From the IMG/VR virus record IMGVR_UViG_2698536312_000008: a stretch of 7,919 nucleotides of DNA. The stretch is one strand, 5' to 3'. Shown here in pieces: positions 1-7,919 of this stretch; within the stretch, counting starts at the first letter, position 1; every line of letters begins with the position of its first letter. The translations under genes were made by a program, and so were the position numbers. The notes under the pieces are model-generated. The model did not search any database. It worked only from the letters and a program-made list of their open reading frames with translations, and was not told the origin of the DNA. The stretch is from a virus (Duplodnaviria; Heunggongvirae; Uroviricota; Caudoviricetes).

Positions 1-98
1 GGTTTATCTTCAAGTTAACTATATGAAAAATATAAAAACAGGTCTTCTGTGAACCGGACATGACCGGTTTTGTTGTGATTGTGAGGTGAGAGTTCAGA

Positions 99-548
99 TT
101 GCAGAAATTGCCGGGTGCCCCGATATCGAATAAGCGAGGGCAACTGGATCTGGATGCCTGGCGCGATTTTTACATATCGTATCTGAGAAGAAGTAAAAAC
201 GATGTGCCTGATGGCGATAGCGAAGACGACTATGAGGAAAAATTGCTTATTGCCAGATGGGAACTGACAGCAGAACAGGCTGTTACACAGCAGTTAAAAA
301 ATGAGGTGTCAAAAGGAAAACTTATTGACACCGGGTTCTGTATTTTTGCCCTCAGCAAGCTGGCAATGGCGTTATCCAGTACGCTTGATTCCATCCCTTT
401 ATCCATGCAACGACAGTTTCCTGATTTAACACCACGCCATCTTGACCATCTGAAAACCCTTATTGCGAAGGGGGCAAATCAGTGTGCGCGGGCAGGGGAT
501 AAATTACCGGATTTACTCGATGAATATATCAGAGCAACAACTGAATAA
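99..548 (+). CDS. nu1: Terminase small subunit, lambda Nu1-like, N-terminally truncated relative to lambda Nu1 (possible pseudogene or TTG-initiated short form)
   Basis: The C-terminal ~75 aa (KLIDTGFCIFALSKL...SIPLSMQRQFPDL..RHLDHLK...LPDLLDEYI) align colinearly with the recalled C-terminal half of lambda Nu1 (ETAFCTFVLSRI...GLPLSVQRRFPEL.NRHVDFLK...IPGLLSEYI). The first residues (QKLPGAPI) appear to match lambda near residue ~21-29 (QEQGMPV). An in-frame TGA at 87-89 closes the frame upstream, and the other two frames upstream hold stops and no Nu1-like coding. The only start is TTG at 99, preceded by an SD-like GAGGTGA at 83-89. The 3' end overlaps the gpA start, as in lambda. Confidence 0.7.
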   Translation: MQKLPGAPISNKRGQLDLDAWRDFYISYLRRSKNDVPDGDSEDDYEEKLLIARWELTAEQAVTQQLKNEVSKGKLIDTGFCIFALSKLAMALSSTLDSIPLSMQRQFPDLTPRHLDHLKTLIAKGANQCARAGDKLPDLLDEYIRATTE

Positions 549-2448
549 TATGATGAGTGCTGTCACAACAGCATTACAGCCCCTGATAAGGGCATTGCCG
601 GTGACGCCAGTTGAATGGGCTGATCAAAATTATTATCTGCCTAAAGAATCTTCATATGGTGAGGGAGAATGGAAAACGCTGCCGTTCCAGGTCGCCATTA
701 TGAACTGTATGGGTAACGACCAGGTTCGCACGGTTAACCTGATTAAATCTGCCCGTGTTGGCTATACAAAGATGTTGCTGGGGGTGGTCGGGTATTTTAT
801 TGAGCATAAATCACGAAACAGTCTGCTTTTTCAGCCCACGGATTCTGCCGCTGAAGATTTTATGAAGTCTCACGTGGAGGCGACGATTCGGGATGTGCCA
901 TGCCTGAAAGACCTTTCCCCATGGCTGGGTCGTAAACATCGTGATAATACCCTCACGCTGAAACGTTTTTCATCGGGCGTGGGCTTCTGGTGCCTGGGCG
1001 GGGCTGCCGCTAAAAACTACCGTGAAAAATCCGTGGACGTGGTCTGCTATGACGAACTTTCCTCGTTCGAACCGGATGTCGAAAAAGAGGGGTCGCCAAC
1101 CCTGCTTGGGGATAAACGTATTGAGGGCTCTGTATGGCCCAAATCCATTCGCGGCTCGACGCCTAAAATCAAAGGCACCTGCCAGATCGAAAAAGCGGCC
1201 AACGAGTCGGCGCATTTTATGCGTTTTTATGTGCCCTGCCCACACTGTGGGGAGGAGCAGTATCTGAAATTTGGCGATGAGTCCACGCCTTTTGGGCTTA
1301 AATGGGAGAAGGACAGTCCCGAAAGTGTTTTCTACCTCTGTGAACATCATGGCTGCGTGATCCATCAGTCTGAACTGGACCAGAGCAACGGGCGGTGGAT
1401 CTGTGAAAACACGGGCATGTGGACCCGTGACGGTCTGACGTTTTTCAGCGCTGCGGGTAATGAAATTCCGCCGCCGCGCTCCATCACGTTCCATATCTGG
1501 ACGGCGTACAGTCCGTTTACCACCTGGGTACAGATAGTCTATGACTGGCTGGATGCACTGAAAGATCCCAACGGCGTGAAAACCTTTGTGAACACCACGC
1601 TGGGCGAGACCTGGGAAGAGGCCGTGGGCGAAAAACTTGATCACCAGGTGCTGATGGATAAGGTCGTGCATTATACGGCGGCGGTACCTGCCCGGGTGGT
1701 TTATCTGACGGCGGGCATTGACTCGCAGCGAAACCGTTTTGAGATGTATGTCTGGGGATGGGCACCGGGAGAGGAAGCTTTTCTGGTGGATAAAATCATC
1801 ATTATGGGGCGTCCTGATGAGGAAGAGACGCTGTTACGTGTGGATGCGGCGATCAACAAAAAATACCGCCATGCGGATGGCACCGAGATGACCATTTCCC
1901 GTGTCTGCTGGGACACCGGGGGGATCGATGGCGAAATCGTTTATCAGAGGTCAAAAAAACACGGTGTTTTCCGGGTGCTGCCGGTAAAAGGTGCATCTGT
2001 TTATGGCAAGCCGGTGATCACCATGCCAAAAACCCGCAATCAGCGGGGCGTGTATCTGTGCGAAGTGGGGACGGACACCGCAAAAGAAATTCTCTATGCC
2101 CGTATGAAAGCCGATCCCACGCCTGCGGATGAAGCCACGTCGTATGCCATCCGTTTTCCTGATGAGCCGGAGATTTTTTCGCAGACAGAGGCGCAGCAAC
2201 TGGTGGCGGAAGAGCTTGTGGAGAAGTGGGAAAAAGGAAAGATGCGTCTGCTGTGGGATAACAAAAAGCGGCGTAACGAAGCGCTGGACTGCCTGGTGTA
2301 TGCCTACGCGGCATTACGTGTGTCCGTGCAACGCTGGCAGCTTGATCTGGCTGTACTGGCAAAATCCCGGGAAGAAGAGACGACCCGGCCACCCCTTAAA
2401 GAACTGGCAGCGAAGCTGTCCGGAGGAGTGAATGGTTACAGTCGCTGA
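520..2448 (+). CDS. A: Terminase large subunit (lambda gpA-like; packaging ATPase plus cos endonuclease)
   Basis: Near-colinear similarity to recalled lambda gpA over the whole length: MNIS..., VEWAD.NYYLPKES.Y.EG.W.TLPFQ, Walker-A-like KSARVGYTKMLLGV, Walker-B-like VDVVCYDE, CPHCGEEQYLKFGD, TFVNTTLGETWE, AGIDSQ, WDTGGID, KKRRNEALDC. The ORF track starts at 463, but the homologous N-terminus MNISEQQ begins at the ATG at 520. The stop is TGA at 2446-2448. Length is about 642 aa, versus about 641 aa recalled for lambda gpA. Confidence 0.93.
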   Translation: MNISEQQLNNMMSAVTTALQPLIRALPVTPVEWADQNYYLPKESSYGEGEWKTLPFQVAIMNCMGNDQVRTVNLIKSARVGYTKMLLGVVGYFIEHKSRNSLLFQPTDSAAEDFMKSHVEATIRDVPCLKDLSPWLGRKHRDNTLTLKRFSSGVGFWCLGGAAAKNYREKSVDVVCYDELSSFEPDVEKEGSPTLLGDKRIEGSVWPKSIRGSTPKIKGTCQIEKAANESAHFMRFYVPCPHCGEEQYLKFGDESTPFGLKWEKDSPESVFYLCEHHGCVIHQSELDQSNGRWICENTGMWTRDGLTFFSAAGNEIPPPRSITFHIWTAYSPFTTWVQIVYDWLDALKDPNGVKTFVNTTLGETWEEAVGEKLDHQVLMDKVVHYTAAVPARVVYLTAGIDSQRNRFEMYVWGWAPGEEAFLVDKIIIMGRPDEEETLLRVDAAINKKYRHADGTEMTISRVCWDTGGIDGEIVYQRSKKHGVFRVLPVKGASVYGKPVITMPKTRNQRGVYLCEVGTDTAKEILYARMKADPTPADEATSYAIRFPDEPEIFSQTEAQQLVAEELVEKWEKGKMRLLWDNKKRRNEALDCLVYAYAALRVSVQRWQLDLAVLAKSREEETTRPPLKELAAKLSGGVNGYSR

Positions 2449-2638
2449 ACTGCAGGCGCTGCGTCAGGCGCGCCTTGATTTATTAACCGGTAAACGGGTG
2501 GTGTCTGTCCAGAAAGATGGTCGCAGAATTGAATATACGGCGGCTTCTCTGGATGAGCTTAACCGGGCGATCAATGATGCGGAGTCGGTACTGGGGACAA
2601 CCCGGCGTCGCCGTCGTCCGCTGGGAGTGAGGTTATGA
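2432..2638 (+). CDS. W: Head completion / head-tail joining protein (lambda gpW-like)
   Basis: 68 aa, the same length as lambda gpW as recalled, with the shared core LLTGKRVVSVQKDGRRIEYTAASL and an RRRRP motif near the C-terminus. GGAGGAG SD at 2423-2429, ATG at 2432. Overlaps the gpA 3' end by 17 nt. Its TGA stop overlaps the ATG of the portal gene (ATGA). Confidence 0.9.
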   Translation: MVTVAELQALRQARLDLLTGKRVVSVQKDGRRIEYTAASLDELNRAINDAESVLGTTRRRRRPLGVRL

Positions 2639-4227
2639 AACGAACGCCTGTCCTGATTGATGTGAACGGCGTTCCGCTTCGGGAGAGCCTCAGCTACAAC
2701 GGGGGCGGCGCAGGATTTGGCGGGCAAATGGCGGAGTGGTTGCCACCCTCGCAGAGTGCCGATGCGGCCCTGCTGCCCGCGTTGCGTCTGGGGAATGCCC
2801 GGGCAGATGATCTGGTGCGCAATAACGGGATAGCGGCCAATGCGGTGGCCCTGCATAAGGATCACATTGTCGGGCATATGTTTCTTATCAGCTACCGTCC
2901 GAACTGGCGCTGGCTGGGGATGCGGGAGACCGCGGCAAAAAGTTTTGTCGATGAGGTGGAGGCGGCCTGGTCAGAATACGCAGAAGGGATGTTTGGTGAG
3001 ATCGACGTGGAAGGGAAACGCACGTTTACGGAATTTATCCGTGAAGGTGTGGGCGTTCATGCGTTTAACGGCGAAATCTTTGTGCAGCCGGTCTGGGATA
3101 CGGAAACCACGCAGTTATTCCGTACGCGTTTTAAAGCCGTGAGTCCGAAACGGGTGGACACGCCAGGACACGGTATCGGGAACCGTTTTCTGCGGGCCGG
3201 TGTGGAGGTCGATCGATATGGCCGTGCCGTTGCGTACCATATCTGTGAGGATGATTTTCCTCGCTCCGGGAGTGGACGATGGGAACGGATCCCGCGTGAA
3301 CTACCCACCGGGCGTCCGGCCATGCTGCATATTTTCGAGCCGGTGGAGGACGGGCAGACCCGTGGGGCCAATCAGTTTTACAGCGTCATGGAACGGCTGA
3401 AGATGCTCGATTCCCTGCAGGCAACACAGCTTCAGTCGGCCATAGTGAAGGCGATGTATGCAGCGACGATTGAAAGTGAACTGGATACCGAAAAGGCCTT
3501 TGAATATATCGCCGGTGCGCCGCAGGGGCAGAAGGATAATCCGCTTATTAATATTCTGGAGAAGTTCTCCAGCTGGTATGACACGAATCACGTGACGCTG
3601 GGCGGTGTCAAAATTCCGCACCTTTTCCCTGGTGATGATCTGAAACTGCAGACAGCGCAGGATTCAGACAATGGATTTTCGGCGCTTGAACAGGCGCTGC
3701 TGCGGTATATCGCCGCCGGTCTTGGCGTTTCCTACGAACAGTTGTCCCGTGATTACTCGAAGGTCAGTTACTCAAGTGCCCGCGCCTCCGCCAATGAGTC
3801 GTGGCGCTATTTTATGGGGCGGCGAAAATTTATTGCGGCCCGACTGGCCACGCAGATGTTTTCCTGCTGGCTGGAAGAGGCACTTCTTCGGGGGATTATT
3901 CGTCCGCCACGGGCTCGTTTTGATTTTTATCAGGCGCGATCAGCCTGGTCACGGGCAGAGTGGATTGGTGCCGGAAGAATGGCCATTGACGGGCTCAAGG
4001 AAGTCCAGGAATCAGTGATGCGCATTGAGGCCGGACTGAGCACGTATGAGAAAGAGCTGGCGCTGATGGGCGAGGATTATCAGGACATTTTCCGCCAGCA
4101 GGTCAGGGAATCTGCAGAGCGGGAAAAAGCCGGACTCTCACGCCCGGTGTGGATAGCGCAGGCGTATCAGCAGCAGATAGCGGAGAGTCGCAGGCCGGAA
4201 GAGGAGACAACACCACGTGAGACGTAA
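2635..4227 (+). CDS. B: Portal protein (lambda gpB-like)
   Basis: 530 aa with extensive colinear identity to recalled lambda gpB: GGG.GFGGQ, GNARADDLVRNNG.AANA, HIFEPVEDGQTRGAN.FYSVME, LQSAIVKAMYAATIESELDT, LLRYIAAGLGVSYEQLSR, ARASANESW.YFMGRRKF, WIG.GRMAIDGLKEVQE, EAGLSTYEKE. SD GGAGTGAGG upstream, ATG at 2635. Confidence 0.94.
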   Translation: MKRTPVLIDVNGVPLRESLSYNGGGAGFGGQMAEWLPPSQSADAALLPALRLGNARADDLVRNNGIAANAVALHKDHIVGHMFLISYRPNWRWLGMRETAAKSFVDEVEAAWSEYAEGMFGEIDVEGKRTFTEFIREGVGVHAFNGEIFVQPVWDTETTQLFRTRFKAVSPKRVDTPGHGIGNRFLRAGVEVDRYGRAVAYHICEDDFPRSGSGRWERIPRELPTGRPAMLHIFEPVEDGQTRGANQFYSVMERLKMLDSLQATQLQSAIVKAMYAATIESELDTEKAFEYIAGAPQGQKDNPLINILEKFSSWYDTNHVTLGGVKIPHLFPGDDLKLQTAQDSDNGFSALEQALLRYIAAGLGVSYEQLSRDYSKVSYSSARASANESWRYFMGRRKFIAARLATQMFSCWLEEALLRGIIRPPRARFDFYQARSAWSRAEWIGAGRMAIDGLKEVQESVMRIEAGLSTYEKELALMGEDYQDIFRQQVRESAEREKAGLSRPVWIAQAYQQQIAESRRPEEETTPRET

Positions 4228-5722
4228 TCTTTCACACATTATTGCCGCAGCATTCAATGAACCGCTGCTTCTGGAGCCCACCTATGCGCGGGTTTTCTTT
4301 TGCGCGCTCGGGCGCGAGATGGGGGCAGCAAGTCTTTCGGTACCACAACAACAGGTACAGCTTGATGCTCCCGGAATGCTGGCTGAAACGGACGAGTACA
4401 TGGCCGGAGGTAAACGACCGGCCCGTGTTTACCGGGTGGTGAACGGTATTGCTGTACTGCCGGTGACCGGCACGCTGGTGCACCGGCTGGGCGGTATGCG
4501 GCCATTTTCCGGAATGACAGGCTATGACGGCATTGTCGCCTGTCTTCAGCAGGCAATGGCAGATAGCCAGGTGCGGGGCGTACTGCTGGACATTGACAGT
4601 CCGGGCGGGCAGGCCGCCGGCGCGTTTGACTGCGCTGACATGATTTACCGCCTCCGTCAGCAGAAGCCGGTCTGGGCACTGTGCAATGACACGGCCTGTT
4701 CTGCAGCCATGCTGCTGGCGTCGGCCTGCTCCCGACGGCTGGTTACCCAGACATCCCGTATCGGCTCCATTGGCGTGATGATGAGCCATGTCAGCTATGC
4801 CGGTCATCTGGCGCAGGCCGGTGTGGATATCACGCTGATTTATGCCGGGGCGCACAAGGTGGATGGCAATCAGTTTGAAGCGTTGCCGGCAGAGGTTCGC
4901 CAGGATATGCAGCAGCGGATTGATGCGGCGCACCGGATGTTTGCCGAAAAAGTGGCGATGTATACCGGGTTGTCTGTGGATGCGGTCACGGGAACAGAGG
5001 CCGCCGTTTTTGAAGGTCAGTCCGGCATTGAGGCCGGGCTGGCGGATGAATTAATCAATGCGTCGGATGCCATCAGCGTGATGGCTGCGGCGCTGAACAC
5101 TCATGATACAGGAGGCACTATGCCGCAATTAACTGCAACGGAAGCTGCCGCGCAGGAGAACCAGCGAGTGATGGGGATCCTGACGTGTCAGGAAGCGAAA
5201 GGACGTGAACAGCTTGCCACGATGCTGGCAGGACAACAGGGCATGAGCATTGAACAGGCCCGGGCGATTCTGGCCGCGGCGGCACCACAGCAGCCGGTGG
5301 CATCCGCGCAGAGTGAAGCCGATCGCATTATGGCGTGTGAAGAAGCGAAAGGTCGTGAACAACTGGCGGCAACGCTGGCGGCGATGCCGGAGATGACGGT
5401 GGAAAAAGCACGCCCGATCCTGGCGGCTGCACCACTGGCGGATGCCGGGCCCTCACTTCGTGATCAGATCATGGCCCTGGATGAGGCAAAAGGGGCAGAA
5501 GCGCAGGCTGAAAAACTGGCGGCCTGCCCGGGAATGACCGTGGAGAACGCCCGGGCTGTGCTGGCTGCGGGATCAGGTAAGGCCGAACCGGTCTCTGCAT
5601 CCACAACCGCCCTGTTTGAACATTTCATGGCGAATCATTCACCGGCAGCGGTGCGGGGTGGCGTGTCACAGACGTCAGCAGACGGTGATGCGGACGTGAA
5701 AATGCTCATGGCCATGCCATGA
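4217..5722 (+). CDS. C: Head maturation protease / prohead protein (lambda gpC-like, ClpP/SppA S49-type serine peptidase) with an expanded C-terminal scaffold domain
   Basis: Colinear match to recalled lambda gpC: AFNEPL.LEP.YARVFFCAL, NGIAVLPV.GTLV, SGMTGY.GI, FDCAD.I, KPVWAL.ND..CSA..LLAS, SRRLVTQT.R.GSIGVMM.H, ITLIY.G.HKVDGN, MFA.KV..YTGLSV, EAGLADEL.N..DAI.VM. The start is inferred as GTG at 4217: there is no in-frame ATG near the homologous N-terminus, and GAGGAG lies at 4201-4206. Overlaps the portal gene's 3' end. About 501 aa versus about 439 aa for lambda C; the excess is the repeat expansion listed separately. Confidence 0.88.
   Translation: MRRNLSHIIAAAFNEPLLLEPTYARVFFCALGREMGAASLSVPQQQVQLDAPGMLAETDEYMAGGKRPARVYRVVNGIAVLPVTGTLVHRLGGMRPFSGMTGYDGIVACLQQAMADSQVRGVLLDIDSPGGQAAGAFDCADMIYRLRQQKPVWALCNDTACSAAMLLASACSRRLVTQTSRIGSIGVMMSHVSYAGHLAQAGVDITLIYAGAHKVDGNQFEALPAEVRQDMQQRIDAAHRMFAEKVAMYTGLSVDAVTGTEAAVFEGQSGIEAGLADELINASDAISVMAAALNTHDTGGTMPQLTATEAAAQENQRVMGILTCQEAKGREQLATMLAGQQGMSIEQARAILAAAAPQQPVASAQSEADRIMACEEAKGREQLAATLAAMPEMTVEKARPILAAAPLADAGPSLRDQIMALDEAKGAEAQAEKLAACPGMTVENARAVLAAGSGKAEPVSASTTALFEHFMANHSPAAVRGGVSQTSADGDADVKMLMAMP
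5120..5722 (+). CDS. nu3: Scaffolding protein (lambda Nu3-like), nested in-frame in the 3' part of the gpC gene
   Basis: An in-frame ATG at 5120 is preceded by AGGAGG at 5110-5115, a strong SD with a short spacer. This is the equivalent position to where lambda Nu3 starts inside C (lambda ...GGRMTKETQ... versus here ...GGTMPQLTATE...). The downstream sequence carries the Nu3 motif IMGIL.C.EA.GRE....LA..PGMTV..AR.ILAAAP. Predicted product is about 200 aa. Confidence 0.6.
   Translation: MPQLTATEAAAQENQRVMGILTCQEAKGREQLATMLAGQQGMSIEQARAILAAAAPQQPVASAQSEADRIMACEEAKGREQLAATLAAMPEMTVEKARPILAAAPLADAGPSLRDQIMALDEAKGAEAQAEKLAACPGMTVENARAVLAAGSGKAEPVSASTTALFEHFMANHSPAAVRGGVSQTSADGDADVKMLMAMP
5165..5572 (+). 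repeat. Three tandem, diverged, in-frame copies of the scaffold motif (about 114-156 bp each) inside the gpC/Nu3 coding sequence
   Basis: Protein-level repeats: RVMGILTCQEAKGREQLATMLAGQQGMSIEQARAILAAAAP / DRIMACEEAKGREQLAATLAAMPEMTVEKARPILAAAP / DQIMALDEAKGAEAQAEKLAACPGMTVENARAVLAAG. Copies start at about 5165, 5321 and 5459. The DNA copies are clearly related but not identical (for example gaagcgaaaggacgtgaacagcttgcc versus gaagcgaaaggtcgtgaacaactggcg). Confidence 0.65.
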
Positions 5723-5758
5723 AGTCAGTGCTGACCATCAATATGAGGTTTTAACAAA

Positions 5759-6106
5759 ATGGTGACGAAAACCATCACTGAACAGCGTGCGGAAGTACGT
5801 ATTTTTGCTGGTAATGATCCGGCTCATACCGCCACAGGCAGCAGCGGGATTTCTTCTGCAACACCGGCTCTGACGCCCCTGATGCTGGATGAAGCCACCG
5901 GGAAACTGGTGGTCTGGGATGGACAGAAAGCCGGTAGTGCGGTTGGCATACTGGTACTGCCGCTTGAAGGCACAGAGACGGTGCTGACCTATTACAAGTC
6001 GGGGACCTTTGCGACGGAGGCAATCCGCTGGCCTGACAGTGTGGATGAACACAAAAAGGCAAATGCCTTTGCCGGCACAGCCCTGAGTCACGCGGCTCTG
6101 CCGTAA
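5759..6106 (+). CDS. D: Head decoration protein (lambda gpD-like)
   Basis: 115 aa. Matches recalled lambda gpD: NDPAHTAT, TPLMLD, KLV.WDG, AVGIL, YKSGTF, WP....DE.KK..AFAGTA. ATG at 5759, stop at 6104-6106. Confidence 0.92.
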   Translation: MVTKTITEQRAEVRIFAGNDPAHTATGSSGISSATPALTPLMLDEATGKLVVWDGQKAGSAVGILVLPLEGTETVLTYYKSGTFATEAIRWPDSVDEHKKANAFAGTALSHAALP

Positions 6107-6113
6107 CACGTTA

Positions 6114-6135
6114 TCAGGCCACCATGGTGGCCTGA
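6114..6135. promoter_or_regulatory. Perfect 22-bp palindrome (TCAGGCCACCATGGTGGCCTGA) in the D-E intergenic region; predicted RNA stem-loop followed by a U-rich stretch
   Basis: Direct reading: 6114-6135 equals its own reverse complement, giving a 9-bp GC-rich stem with a CAUG loop, followed by ctgatttctgaatg. Lambda has a GC-rich hairpin plus T-run at the equivalent D/E junction (GCCGCCTGTGCGGCTTTTTTT, from recall). Confidence 0.55.
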
Positions 6136-6163
6136 CTGATTTCTGAATGAAAGGAACTGATTT

Positions 6164-7192
6164 ATGGGATTGTTTACGACCCGCCAGTTACTCGGTTATA
6201 CCGAACAAAAAGTTAAATTTCGTGCGCTGTTTCTGGAACTGTTTTTCCGCCGTACGGTGAATTTCCACACCGAAGAGGTGATGCTGGACAAAATTACCGG
6301 AAAAACGCCGGTGGCGGCCTATGTCTCCCCGGTCGTTGAAGGAAAAGTGCTGCGTCATCGTGGGGGTGAAACCCGCGTGTTACGTCCGGGCTACGTCAAG
6401 CCGAAACACGAATTTAATTACCAGCAGGCGGTTGAACGCCTTCCCGGTGAAGATCCGGCTCAGCTGAACGACCCGGCCTACCGTCGTCTGCGTATCATCA
6501 CTGATAACCTCAAACAGGAAGAGCACGCTATTGTGCAGGTGGAAGAAATGCAGGCGGTGAATGCCGTGCTGTATGGCAAATATACGATGGAAGGAGACCA
6601 GTTCGAGAAAATTGAAGTCGATTTTGGCCGATCGACGAAGAATAACATCATACAGGGTAGCGGTAAGGAGTGGTCAAAACAGGATCGTGACACGTTCGAC
6701 CCGACATATGATATCGACCTTTTCTGTGATCAGGCCAGTGGTCTTGTGAATATTGCCATTATGGACGGTACCGTCTGGCGTCTGCTGAATGGCTTTAAGC
6801 TTTTCCGCGAAAAACTGGATACCCGTCGCGGTTCAAATTCACAACTCGAAACGGCAGTGAAAGATCTGGGCGCAGTGGTATCCTTCAAGGGGTATTACGG
6901 CGATCTGGCTATTGTGGTAGCGAAAACGTCTTATGTGGCAGAGGACGGTACCGAAAAACGTTATCTGCCGGAGGGCACGCTGGTGCTGGGGAATACGGCG
7001 GCAGAGGGGATTCGTTGCTATGGAGCCATTAAGGATGCACAGGCGTTGTCTGAAGGAGTGGTGGCTTCTTCCCGTTACCCGAAACACTGGCTGACCGTGG
7101 GCGATCCGTCCTGTGAATTCACCATGACGCAGTCCGCGCCGCTGATGGTGCTGCCGGATCCGGATGAGTTTGTGGTGGTACAGGTGAAATAA
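6164..7192 (+). CDS. E: Major capsid protein (lambda gpE-like)
   Basis: 342 aa. Colinear with recalled lambda gpE: TT.QLL, FLRLFFR, YVSP.V.G.V.R.RGG, PGYVKPKHE, DPAYRR.RII, QVEEMQAV.AVL.GKYTM, KLDTRRGSNS.LETAVKDLG, GDVAIVV, GNT.A.G.R.YG.I.DA, RYPK.W.T.GDP..EFTM.QSAPLM.L.DPDEFV.VQ. AAGGA SD at 6151-6155, ATG at 6164. Confidence 0.95.
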   Translation: MGLFTTRQLLGYTEQKVKFRALFLELFFRRTVNFHTEEVMLDKITGKTPVAAYVSPVVEGKVLRHRGGETRVLRPGYVKPKHEFNYQQAVERLPGEDPAQLNDPAYRRLRIITDNLKQEEHAIVQVEEMQAVNAVLYGKYTMEGDQFEKIEVDFGRSTKNNIIQGSGKEWSKQDRDTFDPTYDIDLFCDQASGLVNIAIMDGTVWRLLNGFKLFREKLDTRRGSNSQLETAVKDLGAVVSFKGYYGDLAIVVAKTSYVAEDGTEKRYLPEGTLVLGNTAAEGIRCYGAIKDAQALSEGVVASSRYPKHWLTVGDPSCEFTMTQSAPLMVLPDPDEFVVVQVK

Positions 7193-7200
7193 TCCGTGAG

Positions 7201-7228
7201 CGGGGGCGAAATGCCCCCGTGTTTTTTT
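7201..7228 (+). terminator. Rho-independent terminator-like hairpin directly after the major capsid gene (stem CGGGGGC / GCCCCCG, loop GAAAT, then TGTTTTTTT)
   Basis: Direct reading: cgggggc-gaaat-gcccccg at 7201-7219, followed by tgttttttt at 7220-7228. It lies 9 nt after the gpE stop and upstream of the gpFI SD and ATG. Lambda carries an analogous hairpin at the E/FI junction (ATGGCCCTTCGGGGCCAT, from recall). Confidence 0.7.
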
Positions 7229-7243
7229 CACAGGGAGCTGGAT

Positions 7244-7612
7244 ATGGCAACAAAAGAAGAAAATCAGAAACGTCTTCGTGAACTGGCTGGTCTGCTGGGG
7301 CGCGAGGCGGATATGTCGGGGAGTGCTGCGGATATCGCACAGCGTGTGGCAGAGTGGGAAGAGGAGGTTTGCGCCTCGGAAAATGAAATCGCAGATGTTG
7401 ATGATACCGTTCATGAGCAGGCATGCAGGCACACCGGTGAGGATGACGTTGGTATTCTGGAACGTATCAGGCTTCTGAAGTGTTTTTACCTGTGCGGTGT
7501 TGACGATGAAACAGGTGAGCCTGTTGAGCATGTTGATGCTGGCAGAGTAATTCTGATGCCCCCCTCAGTGGCAAAAGACATGGTCAGGAGCGGAATGGCC
7601 GTTTATGCATGA
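7244..7612 (+). CDS. FI: DNA-packaging / head assembly accessory protein (lambda gpFI-like)
   Basis: The N-terminus MATKEENQKRLRELAGLLGRE...AADIAQRVAEWEEE resembles recalled lambda gpFI (MTKDELIARLRSLGEQLNRD...KEELALRVAELKEE), followed by an acidic central region. AGGGAG SD at 7232-7237, ATG at 7244. The ORF-track start at 7196 would translate through the terminator hairpin and is rejected. Stop TGA at 7610-7612. Confidence 0.8.
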   Translation: MATKEENQKRLRELAGLLGREADMSGSAADIAQRVAEWEEEVCASENEIADVDDTVHEQACRHTGEDDVGILERIRLLKCFYLCGVDDETGEPVEHVDAGRVILMPPSVAKDMVRSGMAVYA

Positions 7613-7919
7613 TTTTGAGAATTCCTTTGATGCTGCCCTTGCCGGGGTGGACAGAACGATTGTTGAAGTGATGGGGCTCTGTGCGCAGTTCACCTCGGGG
7701 GCACAGTGTGGCAGCGAAGTTCAGGGGGTTTTTGACGATCCGGAGTCGCTGGGGTTTGCCGGTAGCGGGGTCCGTATTGAAGGAAGCAGCCCGTCATTAT
7801 TTGTGCGGACGGATACGGTTCGTGCCGTGCGGCGTGGTGACACGCTGACCATTAATGGTGAGACATTCTGGGTGGATCGTGTTTCTCTGTCAACGCCACG
7901 ATGTTTGACCGTTATTTGC
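7605..7919 (+). CDS. FII: Head-tail joining protein (lambda gpFII-like), 3'-partial, continues past the window end
   Basis: Not in the ORF track because no stop falls in the window. Manual translation from the ATG at 7605 gives MHDFENSFDAALAGVDRTIVEVMG...VQGVFDDPESLGFAGSGVRIEGSSPSLFVRTDTVRAVRRGDTLTINGETFWVDRVS, which matches recalled lambda gpFII (MADFDNLFDAAIARADETIRGYMG...IRGVFDDPENISYAGQGVRVEGSSPSLFVRTDEVRQLRRGDTLTIGEENFWVDRVS). Overlaps the gpFI stop (ATGCATGA). Confidence 0.88.
   Translation, partial: MHDFENSFDAALAGVDRTIVEVMGLCAQFTSGAQCGSEVQGVFDDPESLGFAGSGVRIEGSSPSLFVRTDTVRAVRRGDTLTINGETFWVDRVSLSTPRCLTVIC

What the first reader, a model, noticed from the sequence alone, without database searches (positions are those of the whole stretch)
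60..200. Small terminase loses lambda homology at about position 95 and lacks the N-terminal DNA-binding domain
Similarity to lambda Nu1 begins essentially at the first codon of the ORF, and by my alignment this corresponds to lambda Nu1 residue ~21. The first ~20 residues, which hold the first helix of the winged helix-turn-helix that recognises cosB, have no counterpart. The frame is closed by TGA at 87-89 and no upstream frame encodes them. The only start is TTG at 99, with a decent SD (GAGGTGA, 9-nt spacer). Either this is a recombination or deletion breakpoint that made a packaging-defective prophage, or it is a natural short small-terminase variant with different DNA-recognition specificity. 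The self-assembly and gpA-binding C-terminal regions are intact, so an N-truncated protein could still bind the large subunit.
Basis: partly seen in the sequence, partly recalled or inferred. Interest (0 to 1): 0.6.

Follow-up and report, generated by a model that had tools for sequence, protein, structure and literature searches.

The report
Small terminase gene missing its start
This is an ordinary phage DNA-packaging gene in a dead Shigella sonnei prophage that has lost 71 bases at its start, through either a private deletion or a draft-assembly error, and it is not a new short type of terminase.

Summary
ORF 99-548 (TTG start, 149 aa) is a Nu1-type small terminase without its N-terminus.

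The cause is simple. The window is a whole draft contig of Shigella sonnei (CXDB01000167.1). Exactly 71 bp are missing between window positions 94 and 95, compared with every other copy examined:
- more than 1,100 E. coli prophages;
- the PhiR12 phages;
- a complete S. sonnei chromosome;
- the sister isolates of the same clone.

The missing 71 bp carry the real ribosome-binding site, the GTG start and codons 1-19 of a conserved 169-aa protein. In a predicted model these codons form helix 1 and most of helix 2 of a MerR-like winged helix-turn-helix.

Full-length homologues across Enterobacteriaceae are mostly 167-172 aa (range 151-188) and nearly all keep this N-terminus, so this is not a natural short variant.

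The closest sister contig has 0 mismatches over 7,825 bp. It contains the 71 bp but has assembly gaps at both places where the window is anomalous. A mis-assembly is therefore about as likely as a real private deletion.

The prophage is already dead either way: its FII gene is cut by IS21/IS600 and other insertion sequences (IS) lie in the prophage.

BLASTP similarity starts at about ORF codon 53. The finding is ordinary and of low interest.

The parts
1..51 (+). Remnant of the cosB-like region. Positions 1-5 are the last 5 nt of the R3-like element CATGTCCGGTTT, which is cut by the contig start. Positions 6-51 are an AT-rich spacer in the position of lambda's IHF site I1.
   Evidence: Alignment to S. 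sonnei and E. coli copies. The repeat analysis finds CATGTCCGGTT and AACCGGACATG as a perfect inverted pair 47 nt apart. The lambda cosB layout is taken from PMC4669245. The function is inferred, not tested.
52..70 (+). AACCGGACATG (52-62, R2-like, opposite orientation to R3) overlapping CATGACCGGTTT (59-70, R1-like). These are candidate small-terminase binding sites.
   Evidence: E. coli relatives and PhiR12 carry a second AACCGGACATG 30 nt further on. All S. sonnei copies and one O157 genome (H31) have one, so this 30-bp difference belongs to the lineage and is not private to the window.
79..90 (+). TTGTGAGGTGAG, the first copy of a 12-nt direct repeat. By accident of the 71-bp loss it now serves as the Shine-Dalgarno-like sequence for TTG-99. 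It contains the in-frame TGA at 87-89.
   Evidence: The second copy, TTGCGAGGTGAG, lies 17 nt downstream in intact copies. It is the real SD of the GTG start and lies partly within the missing segment.
94..95 (+). Junction of the 71-bp loss (GAGAGTT|CAGATTG). The missing sequence is TTTGCGAGGTGAGGAGTGGCTACGCAGACTGAAGTTGCCAGGCATTTAAGTCTGACCGATCGCCAGCTTCG. There is no microhomology at the junction.
   Evidence: The flanks (window 1-94 and 95-7919) are otherwise identical or nearly identical to CP179997.1 and eight other S. sonnei contigs, all of which contain the 71 bp.
99..548 (+). 5'-truncated small terminase (terS, Nu1-type) ORF of 149 aa. It corresponds to residues 21-169 of the 169-aa protein, with L21 read as the TTG start.
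520..2448 (+). Large terminase (terL, gpA-like, 642 aa). It is intact and overlaps the terS 3' end.
   Evidence: PF05876, PF20454. The identical protein is found in the other S. sonnei copies.
7605..7887 (+). FII-like head-tail joining gene, truncated after codon 94 of 117.
   Evidence: by comparison with E. coli WP_001204544.1 (117 aa).
7888..7919 (.). The first 32 nt of an IS21-like element inserted in FII. In the complete genome this element is itself split by IS600. It explains the right-hand contig end.
   Evidence: The match to the IS21 istB / IS600 region begins exactly at the breakpoint.

Best explanation
ORF 99-548 is the last 149 codons of an ordinary 169-codon Nu1-type small-terminase gene.

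In this contig, and in a second draft record holding the same contig, 71 bp are absent between positions 94 and 95. That segment holds three things:
- the gene's own Shine-Dalgarno sequence;
- the GTG start;
- codons 1-18 plus two bases of codon 19, which encode helix 1 and most of the recognition helix of the N-terminal winged helix-turn-helix that reads cosB.

The loss leaves an upstream copy of a duplicated GAGGTGAG motif 9 nt before an in-frame TTG, so gene callers report a 149-aa ORF. This is shown.

Inferred consequences: any protein made from TTG would keep the oligomerisation and TerL-binding parts but could not recognise cos. This has no consequence here, because the prophage is already inactivated by insertion sequences (FII::IS21::IS600, plus IS elements in the lysis region).

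Whether the 71 bp are missing from the isolate's DNA (a recent private deletion) or only from the assembly (a bad join at a poorly covered spot 94 nt from a contig end) cannot be decided here. I put the two at about even odds.
For: **The 71-bp gap is specific to this contig**
- The window 1-700 matches 1,306 E. coli records (1,154 of them over at least 80% of the query; best about 98.7-98.9% identity) and five PhiR12 phage genomes at 99.2%.
- In both copies aligned from those sets (E. coli 90-3040 and PhiR12_1) the extra 71 bp are present. No listed match to window 1-200 spans the 94|95 junction in one piece.
- The annotated gene there is 169 aa with a GTG start.
- The window is contig CXDB01000167.1 of S. 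sonnei GCA_001256715.1.
- The same prophage carries the 71 bp and a 169-aa gene in the complete chromosome CP179997.1 and in eight other S. sonnei contigs, with 0-2 mismatches elsewhere in those collinear with the window.
- The junction sequence is absent from 185,579 species-representative genomes.

**The N-terminus is a conserved part of the family**
- M1, A2, T3, Q4, E6, A8, H10, R16, R19, L21 and Q22 are nearly invariant across the 23 homologues aligned with the query, which range from 99% to 34% identity (lambda Nu1 is the most distant).
- Hits covering the whole query are mostly 167-172 aa, with a range of 151-188.
- phrog_57 covers all 169 residues, but the window ORF only enters at profile position 36.

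**The lost part is the HTH**
- The AlphaFold model (pLDDT about 80 in the N-terminal 50 residues) has helices at 4-10 and 15-22, a loop at 23-36 and a helix at 38-54.
- The best PDB fold matches are MerR-type winged-HTH domains (RdfS, RacA, MerR regulators). They are weak, with E about 0.4.
- PMC4669245 states that lambda TerS binds cosB through its N-terminal wHTH, and that recognition-helix residues 20 and 24 set specificity.

**The prophage is dead anyway**.
Against: There is no evidence against the 'decapitated ordinary gene' reading.

On real deletion versus artefact the evidence is mixed.

Against a real deletion:
- The junction is 94 nt from the end of a short-read contig.
- The nearest sister contig CXDF01000147.1 (0 mismatches over 7,825 bp) has N-runs exactly where the window contig starts and inside the 71-bp segment.
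- The 149-aa product is not recorded from any Logan re-assembly.

Against an artefact:
- The join has no Ns and no overlap that a scaffolder or gap-filler would normally need.
- Two ENA protein records (CSQ48388.1, CSQ74289.1) carry the product. These may be duplicate assemblies of one data set, because the sister contigs also occur in identical pairs.
Confidence: 0.92

Rival explanations
1. This is a sub-case of the main reading. The 71-bp loss is an assembly error. The isolate's DNA carries the intact 169-aa gene, and the contig's first 94 nt were joined wrongly across a poorly covered stretch.
For: - The window is a whole Illumina draft contig and the junction lies 94 nt from its end.
- Sister contig CXDF01000147.1 belongs to the same project and clone. 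It shares SNP A4280 and has 0 mismatches over 7,825 bp. It has N-runs at 648-726, which cover the spot where the window contig begins, and at 803-822, inside the 71-bp segment.
- The left contig end is native prophage sequence, not an IS end, so it looks like a coverage break.
- Two Logan re-assemblies of runs from this small clade (ERR025741, ERR025742) are fragmented in this prophage, which suggests low coverage.
- The 149-aa product is not in Logan.
Against: - De Bruijn assemblers cannot invent a junction k-mer, and scaffolders insert Ns. The join has neither Ns nor any overlap.
- The same contig is recorded in two samples, although these may be duplicates.
- I could not link the assembly to its sequencing run.
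Confidence: 0.45
2. This is also a sub-case of the main reading. The loss is a real, recent 71-bp deletion private to one S. sonnei isolate or sub-clone, as further decay of an already dead prophage.
For: - The junction is clean and the flanks are otherwise identical.
- Two protein records exist.
- The prophage is visibly decaying in this species. IS21 and IS600 sit in FII, other IS elements lie in the prophage, and a +1 frameshift in gpW occurs in other isolates.
- PMC4669245 notes that cos and terS changes can accumulate in the prophage state, where lytic fitness is moot.
Against: - The coincidence with assembly gaps in the sister assembly is unlikely for a random private deletion.
- The junction has no microhomology.
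- No long-read or Logan assembly shows it.
Confidence: 0.47
3. This is a natural short small-terminase variant that lacks the HTH and uses another way of recognising DNA, or relies on a partner protein.
For: - An SD-like GAGGTGA lies 9 nt upstream of TTG.
- The C-terminal two thirds of the protein are intact.
- Partner proteins that retarget lambda-like TerS are known (the PICI Rpp protein, PMC6739421, listed).
Against: - The product is on record only from the two S. sonnei draft records and two contig-edge fragments.
- Identical flanking DNA in sister isolates encodes the 169-aa form.
- The SD is a left-over copy of a duplicated motif.
- The family N-terminus is strongly conserved.
- The prophage is IS-disrupted.
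Confidence: 0.02
4. Position 95 is a mosaic recombination joint or an IS scar, where a different upstream module was fused to the terS body.
For: Lambdoid phages are mosaic. Contigs of many E. coli assemblies break within this gene's 5' end, as shown by partial products of 134-164 aa.
Against: Window 1-94 is 100% identical to the native sequence immediately upstream of the same gene in CP179997.1. No foreign or IS sequence is present, only a gap.
Confidence: 0.01

Closest known systems
Phage lambda gpNu1 (TerS, 181 aa; Pfam PF07471)
   Same: - The gene position is the same: directly after cos and overlapping terL.
- The central and C-terminal part is 46% identical (residues 73-164 against Nu1 86-177).
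- The family scores above the Pfam cut-off.
- The intact 169-aa relatives have the same predicted helix-turn-helix, loop, helix order at the N-terminus.
- The upstream cosN is lambda-like (GGGCGGCGACCT).
   Different: - The N-terminal DNA-binding third shows no significant sequence similarity to lambda's.
- The R-like repeats have a different sequence (CATGTCCGGTT type), which implies another packaging specificity.
- The window copy lacks the HTH altogether.
Specificity variants of lambda-like TerS/cosB (phage 21, N15, Monarch group; PMC4669245)
   Same: - A conserved TerS body is combined with a divergent recognition helix and matching R sites.
- The cosB-like region has an inverted R pair around an AT-rich spacer.
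- The number of R sites varies by unequal crossing-over. Here a 30-bp indel removes one AACCGGACATG copy.
   Different: All those variants keep the N-terminal wHTH. None is a truncation. The family here (169 aa, called 'Qin Nu1-like' in databases) was not assigned by me to any of the named specificity groups.
Truncated or orphan Nu1 homologues in cryptic prophages (for example nohA/nohD of E. coli K-12; from my own knowledge, not tested here)
   Same: These are terS-family remnants left in defective lambdoid prophages as part of prophage decay.
   Different: Those are fixed in a lineage and confirmed in finished genomes. The truncation here is seen in two draft records only and may not exist in the DNA.
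PICI Rpp-TerS retargeting (PMC6739421, PDB 6HLK)
   Same: It concerns altered DNA recognition by lambda-like TerS through its N-terminal domain. 6HLK appears among the weak fold matches.
   Different: Rpp works by binding an intact TerS. No partner gene and no intact DNA-binding domain are present here.

Membership tests
Nu1-type small terminase (PF07471 / phrog_57) | Sequence match to the family profile above the curated threshold | tested here: met
   PF07471 scores 68.4 bits against a cut-off of 30, but only profile positions 62-163 are matched. phrog_57 gives E = 2e-47 and phrog_1790 gives E = 1e-67.
Nu1-type small terminase (PF07471 / phrog_57) | N-terminal winged helix-turn-helix DNA-binding domain | tested here: not met
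   The window ORF starts at residue 21 of the 169-aa protein. All of helix 4-10 and residues 15-20 of helix 15-22 in the model are lost. phrog_57 alignment starts at profile position 36 instead of 12. In the intact relatives the domain is present. The fold match to MerR-type wHTH is weak (E about 0.4, probability 0.92-0.95).
Nu1-type small terminase (PF07471 / phrog_57) | Gene lies next to cos and immediately upstream of, and overlapping, the large terminase gene | tested here: met
   terS is at 99-548 and terL at 520-2448. Lambda-type cosN and R-like repeats lie upstream in the S. sonnei copies.
Nu1-type small terminase (PF07471 / phrog_57) | Binds cosB and supports cos cleavage and packaging | not testable with these tools
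   This needs gel-shift and packaging assays. It is predicted to be negative for the 149-aa form.
Natural short (HTH-less) small-terminase variant | Recurs in independent, otherwise intact phage or prophage genomes with its own start signals | tested here: not met
   The product is found only in two S. sonnei draft records plus two contig-edge fragments. No listed match among 5,426 complete E. coli genomes spans the junction, and the junction is absent from 185,579 species-representative genomes. Full-coverage homologues are mostly 167-172 aa.
Draft-assembly artefact | The anomaly lies near a contig end, at a place where related assemblies fail | tested here: met
   The junction is 94 nt from the contig start. 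Sister contig L009 has N-runs at both corresponding places.
Draft-assembly artefact | Raw reads or an independent assembly of the same isolate contain the missing segment | not testable with these tools
   The sequencing run of GCA_001256715.1 could not be identified and no reads are available. Indirectly, the 149-aa product is absent from Logan.
Defective (decaying) prophage | Essential morphogenesis genes disrupted by IS elements or frameshifts | tested here: met
   FII is truncated at codon 94 of 117 by IS21, which is itself split by IS600. IS21-family and IS3-family elements lie in the lysis region of CP179997.1.

The most novel reading that the evidence does not exclude
The deletion is real and the HTH-less TerS is made from TTG-99. 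It still assembles with lambda-like TerL, so it would poison the terminase of related superinfecting or co-resident lambdoid phages. That would make it an accidental dominant-negative packaging inhibitor retained by a dead prophage.
Probability: 0.02. Interest if true: 0.45.

Novelty: already known. Interest (0 to 1): 0.08.

Why it matters
It matters little biologically. It shows one more step of decay, or a draft-assembly flaw, in an IS-riddled lambdoid prophage of Shigella sonnei.

It is useful as a caution. A plausible-looking ORF, with a ribosome-binding site and a TTG start, that appears to be a new short terminase is a by-product of 71 missing bases next to a contig end. Database entries such as 'terminase small subunit [Shigella sonnei]' of 149 aa (UniRef UPI000663CC84) should be treated as truncated.

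The side observation has modest interest for packaging-specificity work: a non-lambda R-site set (CATGTCCGGTT type) paired with a lambda-type cosN, and a 30-bp R-copy polymorphism.

Tried and rejected
- **PDB sequence search** with the 169-aa protein gave no Nu1 hit, only chance matches with E of at least 0.7. It is uninformative for the N-terminal domain.
- **Pfam scan of the N-terminal 60 residues** gave only a sub-threshold Sigma70_r3 HTH hit (E 0.05). It is not usable as evidence.
- **Foldseek of the model against the PDB** found no match with E ≤ 0.001. MerR-type wHTH proteins top the list but only weakly.
- **Exact junction search in species-representative genomes** gave 0 hits. GTDB merges Shigella into E. 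coli, so this says little about S. sonnei.
- **Contigs L004 and L005**, which 'carry' the 149-aa product, start at window positions 97 and 98. They do not span the junction and are rejected as support.
- **IS insertion at window position 1** was considered as the reason for the left contig end. It is rejected because the first 31 nt are native prophage sequence, whereas the right end carries 32 nt of IS21.
- **The 30-bp difference at about position 62** was considered as a second private deletion. It is rejected because all S. sonnei copies share it.
- **A literature search for the PhiR12 phages** found nothing relevant.
- **Linking GCA_001256715.1 to a sequencing run** was not possible, so I could not use the Logan assembly of its own reads.

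Full report
**What is in the sequence.**
- GAGGTGA lies at 83-89.
- An in-frame TGA lies at 87-89.
- TTG lies at 99-101.
- An ORF runs to 548 (149 aa) and overlaps the large-terminase gene, whose ATG is at 520.
- The ORF matches Pfam Phage_Nu1 above threshold (68.4 bits, cut-off 30), but only profile positions 62-163 are matched.

**Where the N-terminus went.** Megablast of window 1-700 found 1,306 E. coli records (best about 98.7-98.9% identity) and five PhiR12 phage genomes (99.2%). Every listed match was split into pieces and spanned 71-101 more bases than the query.

Alignment with one E. coli prophage and PhiR12_1 showed two extra segments in the relatives:
- 30 bp between two direct AACCGGACATG copies;
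- 71 bp between window positions 94 and 95.

The annotated gene in the relatives is 169 aa with a GTG start: VATQTEVARHLSLTDRQLRRLQKLPGAP.... The 71 bp contain the second copy of a TTGYGAGGTGAG repeat (the real Shine-Dalgarno sequence), the GTG, and codons 1-18 plus two bases of codon 19. The window ORF is therefore residues 21-169, with L21 (TTG) read as the start. The junction GAGAGTT|CAGATTG has no microhomology.

**Provenance.** An exact-protein look-up showed that the window is an entire draft contig, CXDB01000167.1 (7,919 bp) of Shigella sonnei GCA_001256715.1.

The 149-aa product is on record from few sources:
- two S. sonnei ENA proteins, CSQ48388.1 and CSQ74289.1;
- two contig-edge fragments that start at window 97 and 98 and so do not span the junction.

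It is not recorded from Logan re-assemblies.

A look-up of the window's exact large terminase retrieved the same prophage in a complete 4.89-Mb chromosome (CP179997.1) and eight other contigs. A look-up of gpC added CXDK01000152.1 and Logan ERR025756, both with an intact 169-aa gene, and two Logan fragments that do not reach terS. All copies that reach the gene contain the 71 bp and encode 169 aa. Contig L009 is called at 166 aa only because of an N-run.

All S. sonnei copies share the single AACCGGACATG. The 30-bp difference is therefore a lineage trait, also seen in one O157 genome (H31), and is not part of the anomaly. The junction string is absent from 185,579 species-representative genomes.

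**Real deletion or mis-assembly?** The window carries a non-synonymous SNP, A4280 (gpC T22), that marks a small clade.

Within that clade:
- CXDK01000152.1 and Logan ERR025756 have the intact gene.
- CXDF01000147.1 is identical to the window over all 7,825 bp downstream of the junction. It contains the 71 bp but has two N-runs.
  - The N-run at 648-726 masks the R3/AT-rich region, exactly where the window contig begins.
  - The N-run at 803-822 lies inside the 71-bp segment, at GGCTA[N20]GCAGACTG.

Both oddities of the window's 5' end therefore coincide with places where the same pipeline failed on the closest relative.

Further points:
- The left contig end is native sequence, so it looks like a coverage break. 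The right end carries 32 nt of an IS, so it is a repeat break.
- Two Logan assemblies from this clade (ERR025741, ERR025742) are fragmented here, which suggests low-coverage data.
- Against an artefact, the join has no Ns and no overlap, and de Bruijn assemblers need a read that spans it.
- The 'two samples' are weak support. The sister contigs also occur as identical pairs, N-runs included, which points to duplicate submissions.

I cannot decide without the reads and put the two options at roughly even odds.

**What was lost.** Hits to the 169-aa protein that cover the whole query come from E. coli, E. albertii, Klebsiella, Salmonella, Citrobacter and Enterobacter. Most are 167-172 aa, with a range of 151-188 aa.

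In an alignment of 24 sequences, which also included the window ORF and lambda Nu1, the first 22 positions are among the best conserved. M1, A2, T3, Q4, E6, A8, H10, R16, R19, L21 and Q22 are at least 90% conserved.

An AlphaFold model of a 169-aa member has pLDDT of about 80 over residues 1-50. It shows helix 4-10, helix 15-22, a loop at 23-36 and helix 38-54. The best PDB fold matches are MerR-type winged-HTH domains: the RdfS excisionase, RacA and MerR regulators. None reaches E ≤ 0.001.

Feiss and co-workers (PMC4669245) state two relevant points:
- Lambda TerS recognises cosB through its N-terminal wHTH.
- Recognition-helix residues 20 and 24 determine specificity.

The missing residues 1-20 thus remove helix 1 and six of the eight residues of the putative recognition helix.

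**Correction of the lambda comparison.**
- BLASTP against lambda Nu1 aligns only residues 73-164 of the 169-aa protein (46% identity to Nu1 86-177).
- Pfam aligns from residue 49.
- The N-terminal third is a family-specific module. PHROG families phrog_57 and phrog_7289 cover it.

**Context.** Upstream in the S. sonnei copies lies a lambda-type cosN (GGGCGGCGACCT), followed by:
- CATGTCCGGTTT;
- 47 AT-rich nt;
- the inverted AACCGGACATG, overlapping CATGACCGGTTT.

This matches the R3-I1-R2-R1 logic described for complex cosB sites, but with different R sequences. It is an inference only.

The prophage is defective regardless of terS:
- FII departs from its 117-aa E. coli counterpart after codon 94, at window 7888.
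- At that point an IS21-like element begins, and in CP179997.1 that element is itself split by IS600.
- IS21-family and IS3-family elements also lie in the lysis region.
- Other S. sonnei isolates carry a +1 frameshift in gpW.

**Verdict.** The truncation is real in the given sequence and is explained by 71 missing bases. It is not a natural short terminase and not a recombination joint. It is either a trivial private deletion in a dead prophage or an assembly flaw. Nothing here would surprise a specialist, so interest is low.

Noticed in passing
window 1-70; L006 9340-9480; L001 1490-1600: A cosB-like architecture with non-lambda repeats lies behind a lambda-type cosN (GGGCGGCGACCT). The order is CATGTCCGGTTT, then 47 AT-rich nt, then the inverted AACCGGACATG overlapping CATGRCCGGTTT. 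E. coli prophages and PhiR12 phages have a second AACCGGACATG 30 nt on. All S. sonnei copies and O157:H7 F3113 have lost it, apparently by unequal crossing-over between the 11-nt repeats.
   Followed up: partly
window 7888-7919 (L006 17369 onward): The contig's last 32 nt are the end of an IS21-like element inserted in the FII head-tail joining gene after codon 94 of 117. In CP179997.1 that IS21 is itself interrupted by IS600.
   Followed up: yes
L009 648-726 and 803-822: The sister assembly from the same project has scaffold N-runs at the two spots where the window is anomalous. The second N-run replaces a single real base, although the local sequence is not AT-rich. The cause of the repeated assembly failure there is unexplained.
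   Followed up: partly
window ~2570 (L008, L011): Some S. sonnei isolates carry a 1-base insertion in gpW, which shortens it from 68 to 48 aa. This is another independent decay step of the same prophage.
   Followed up: no
window 4280: The SNP A4280 (G in the other copies compared) changes gpC residue 22 from Ala to Thr. It marks a small S. sonnei clade: CXDB, CXDF, CXDK, and runs ERR025741, ERR025742 and ERR025756.
   Followed up: partly
L006 2700-8400: In the complete S. sonnei genome the lysis region of this prophage carries an IS21-family element between the holin/DUF1327 genes and the lysozyme gene. An IS3-family (IS600-like) element lies after the Rz-like gene.
   Followed up: no
protein cluster of the 169-aa TerS: Many E. 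coli draft assemblies have contigs that begin inside the first 35 codons of this gene, giving partial products of 134-164 aa. The 5' end of this terS is therefore a frequent contig break point in short-read assemblies.
   Followed up: no
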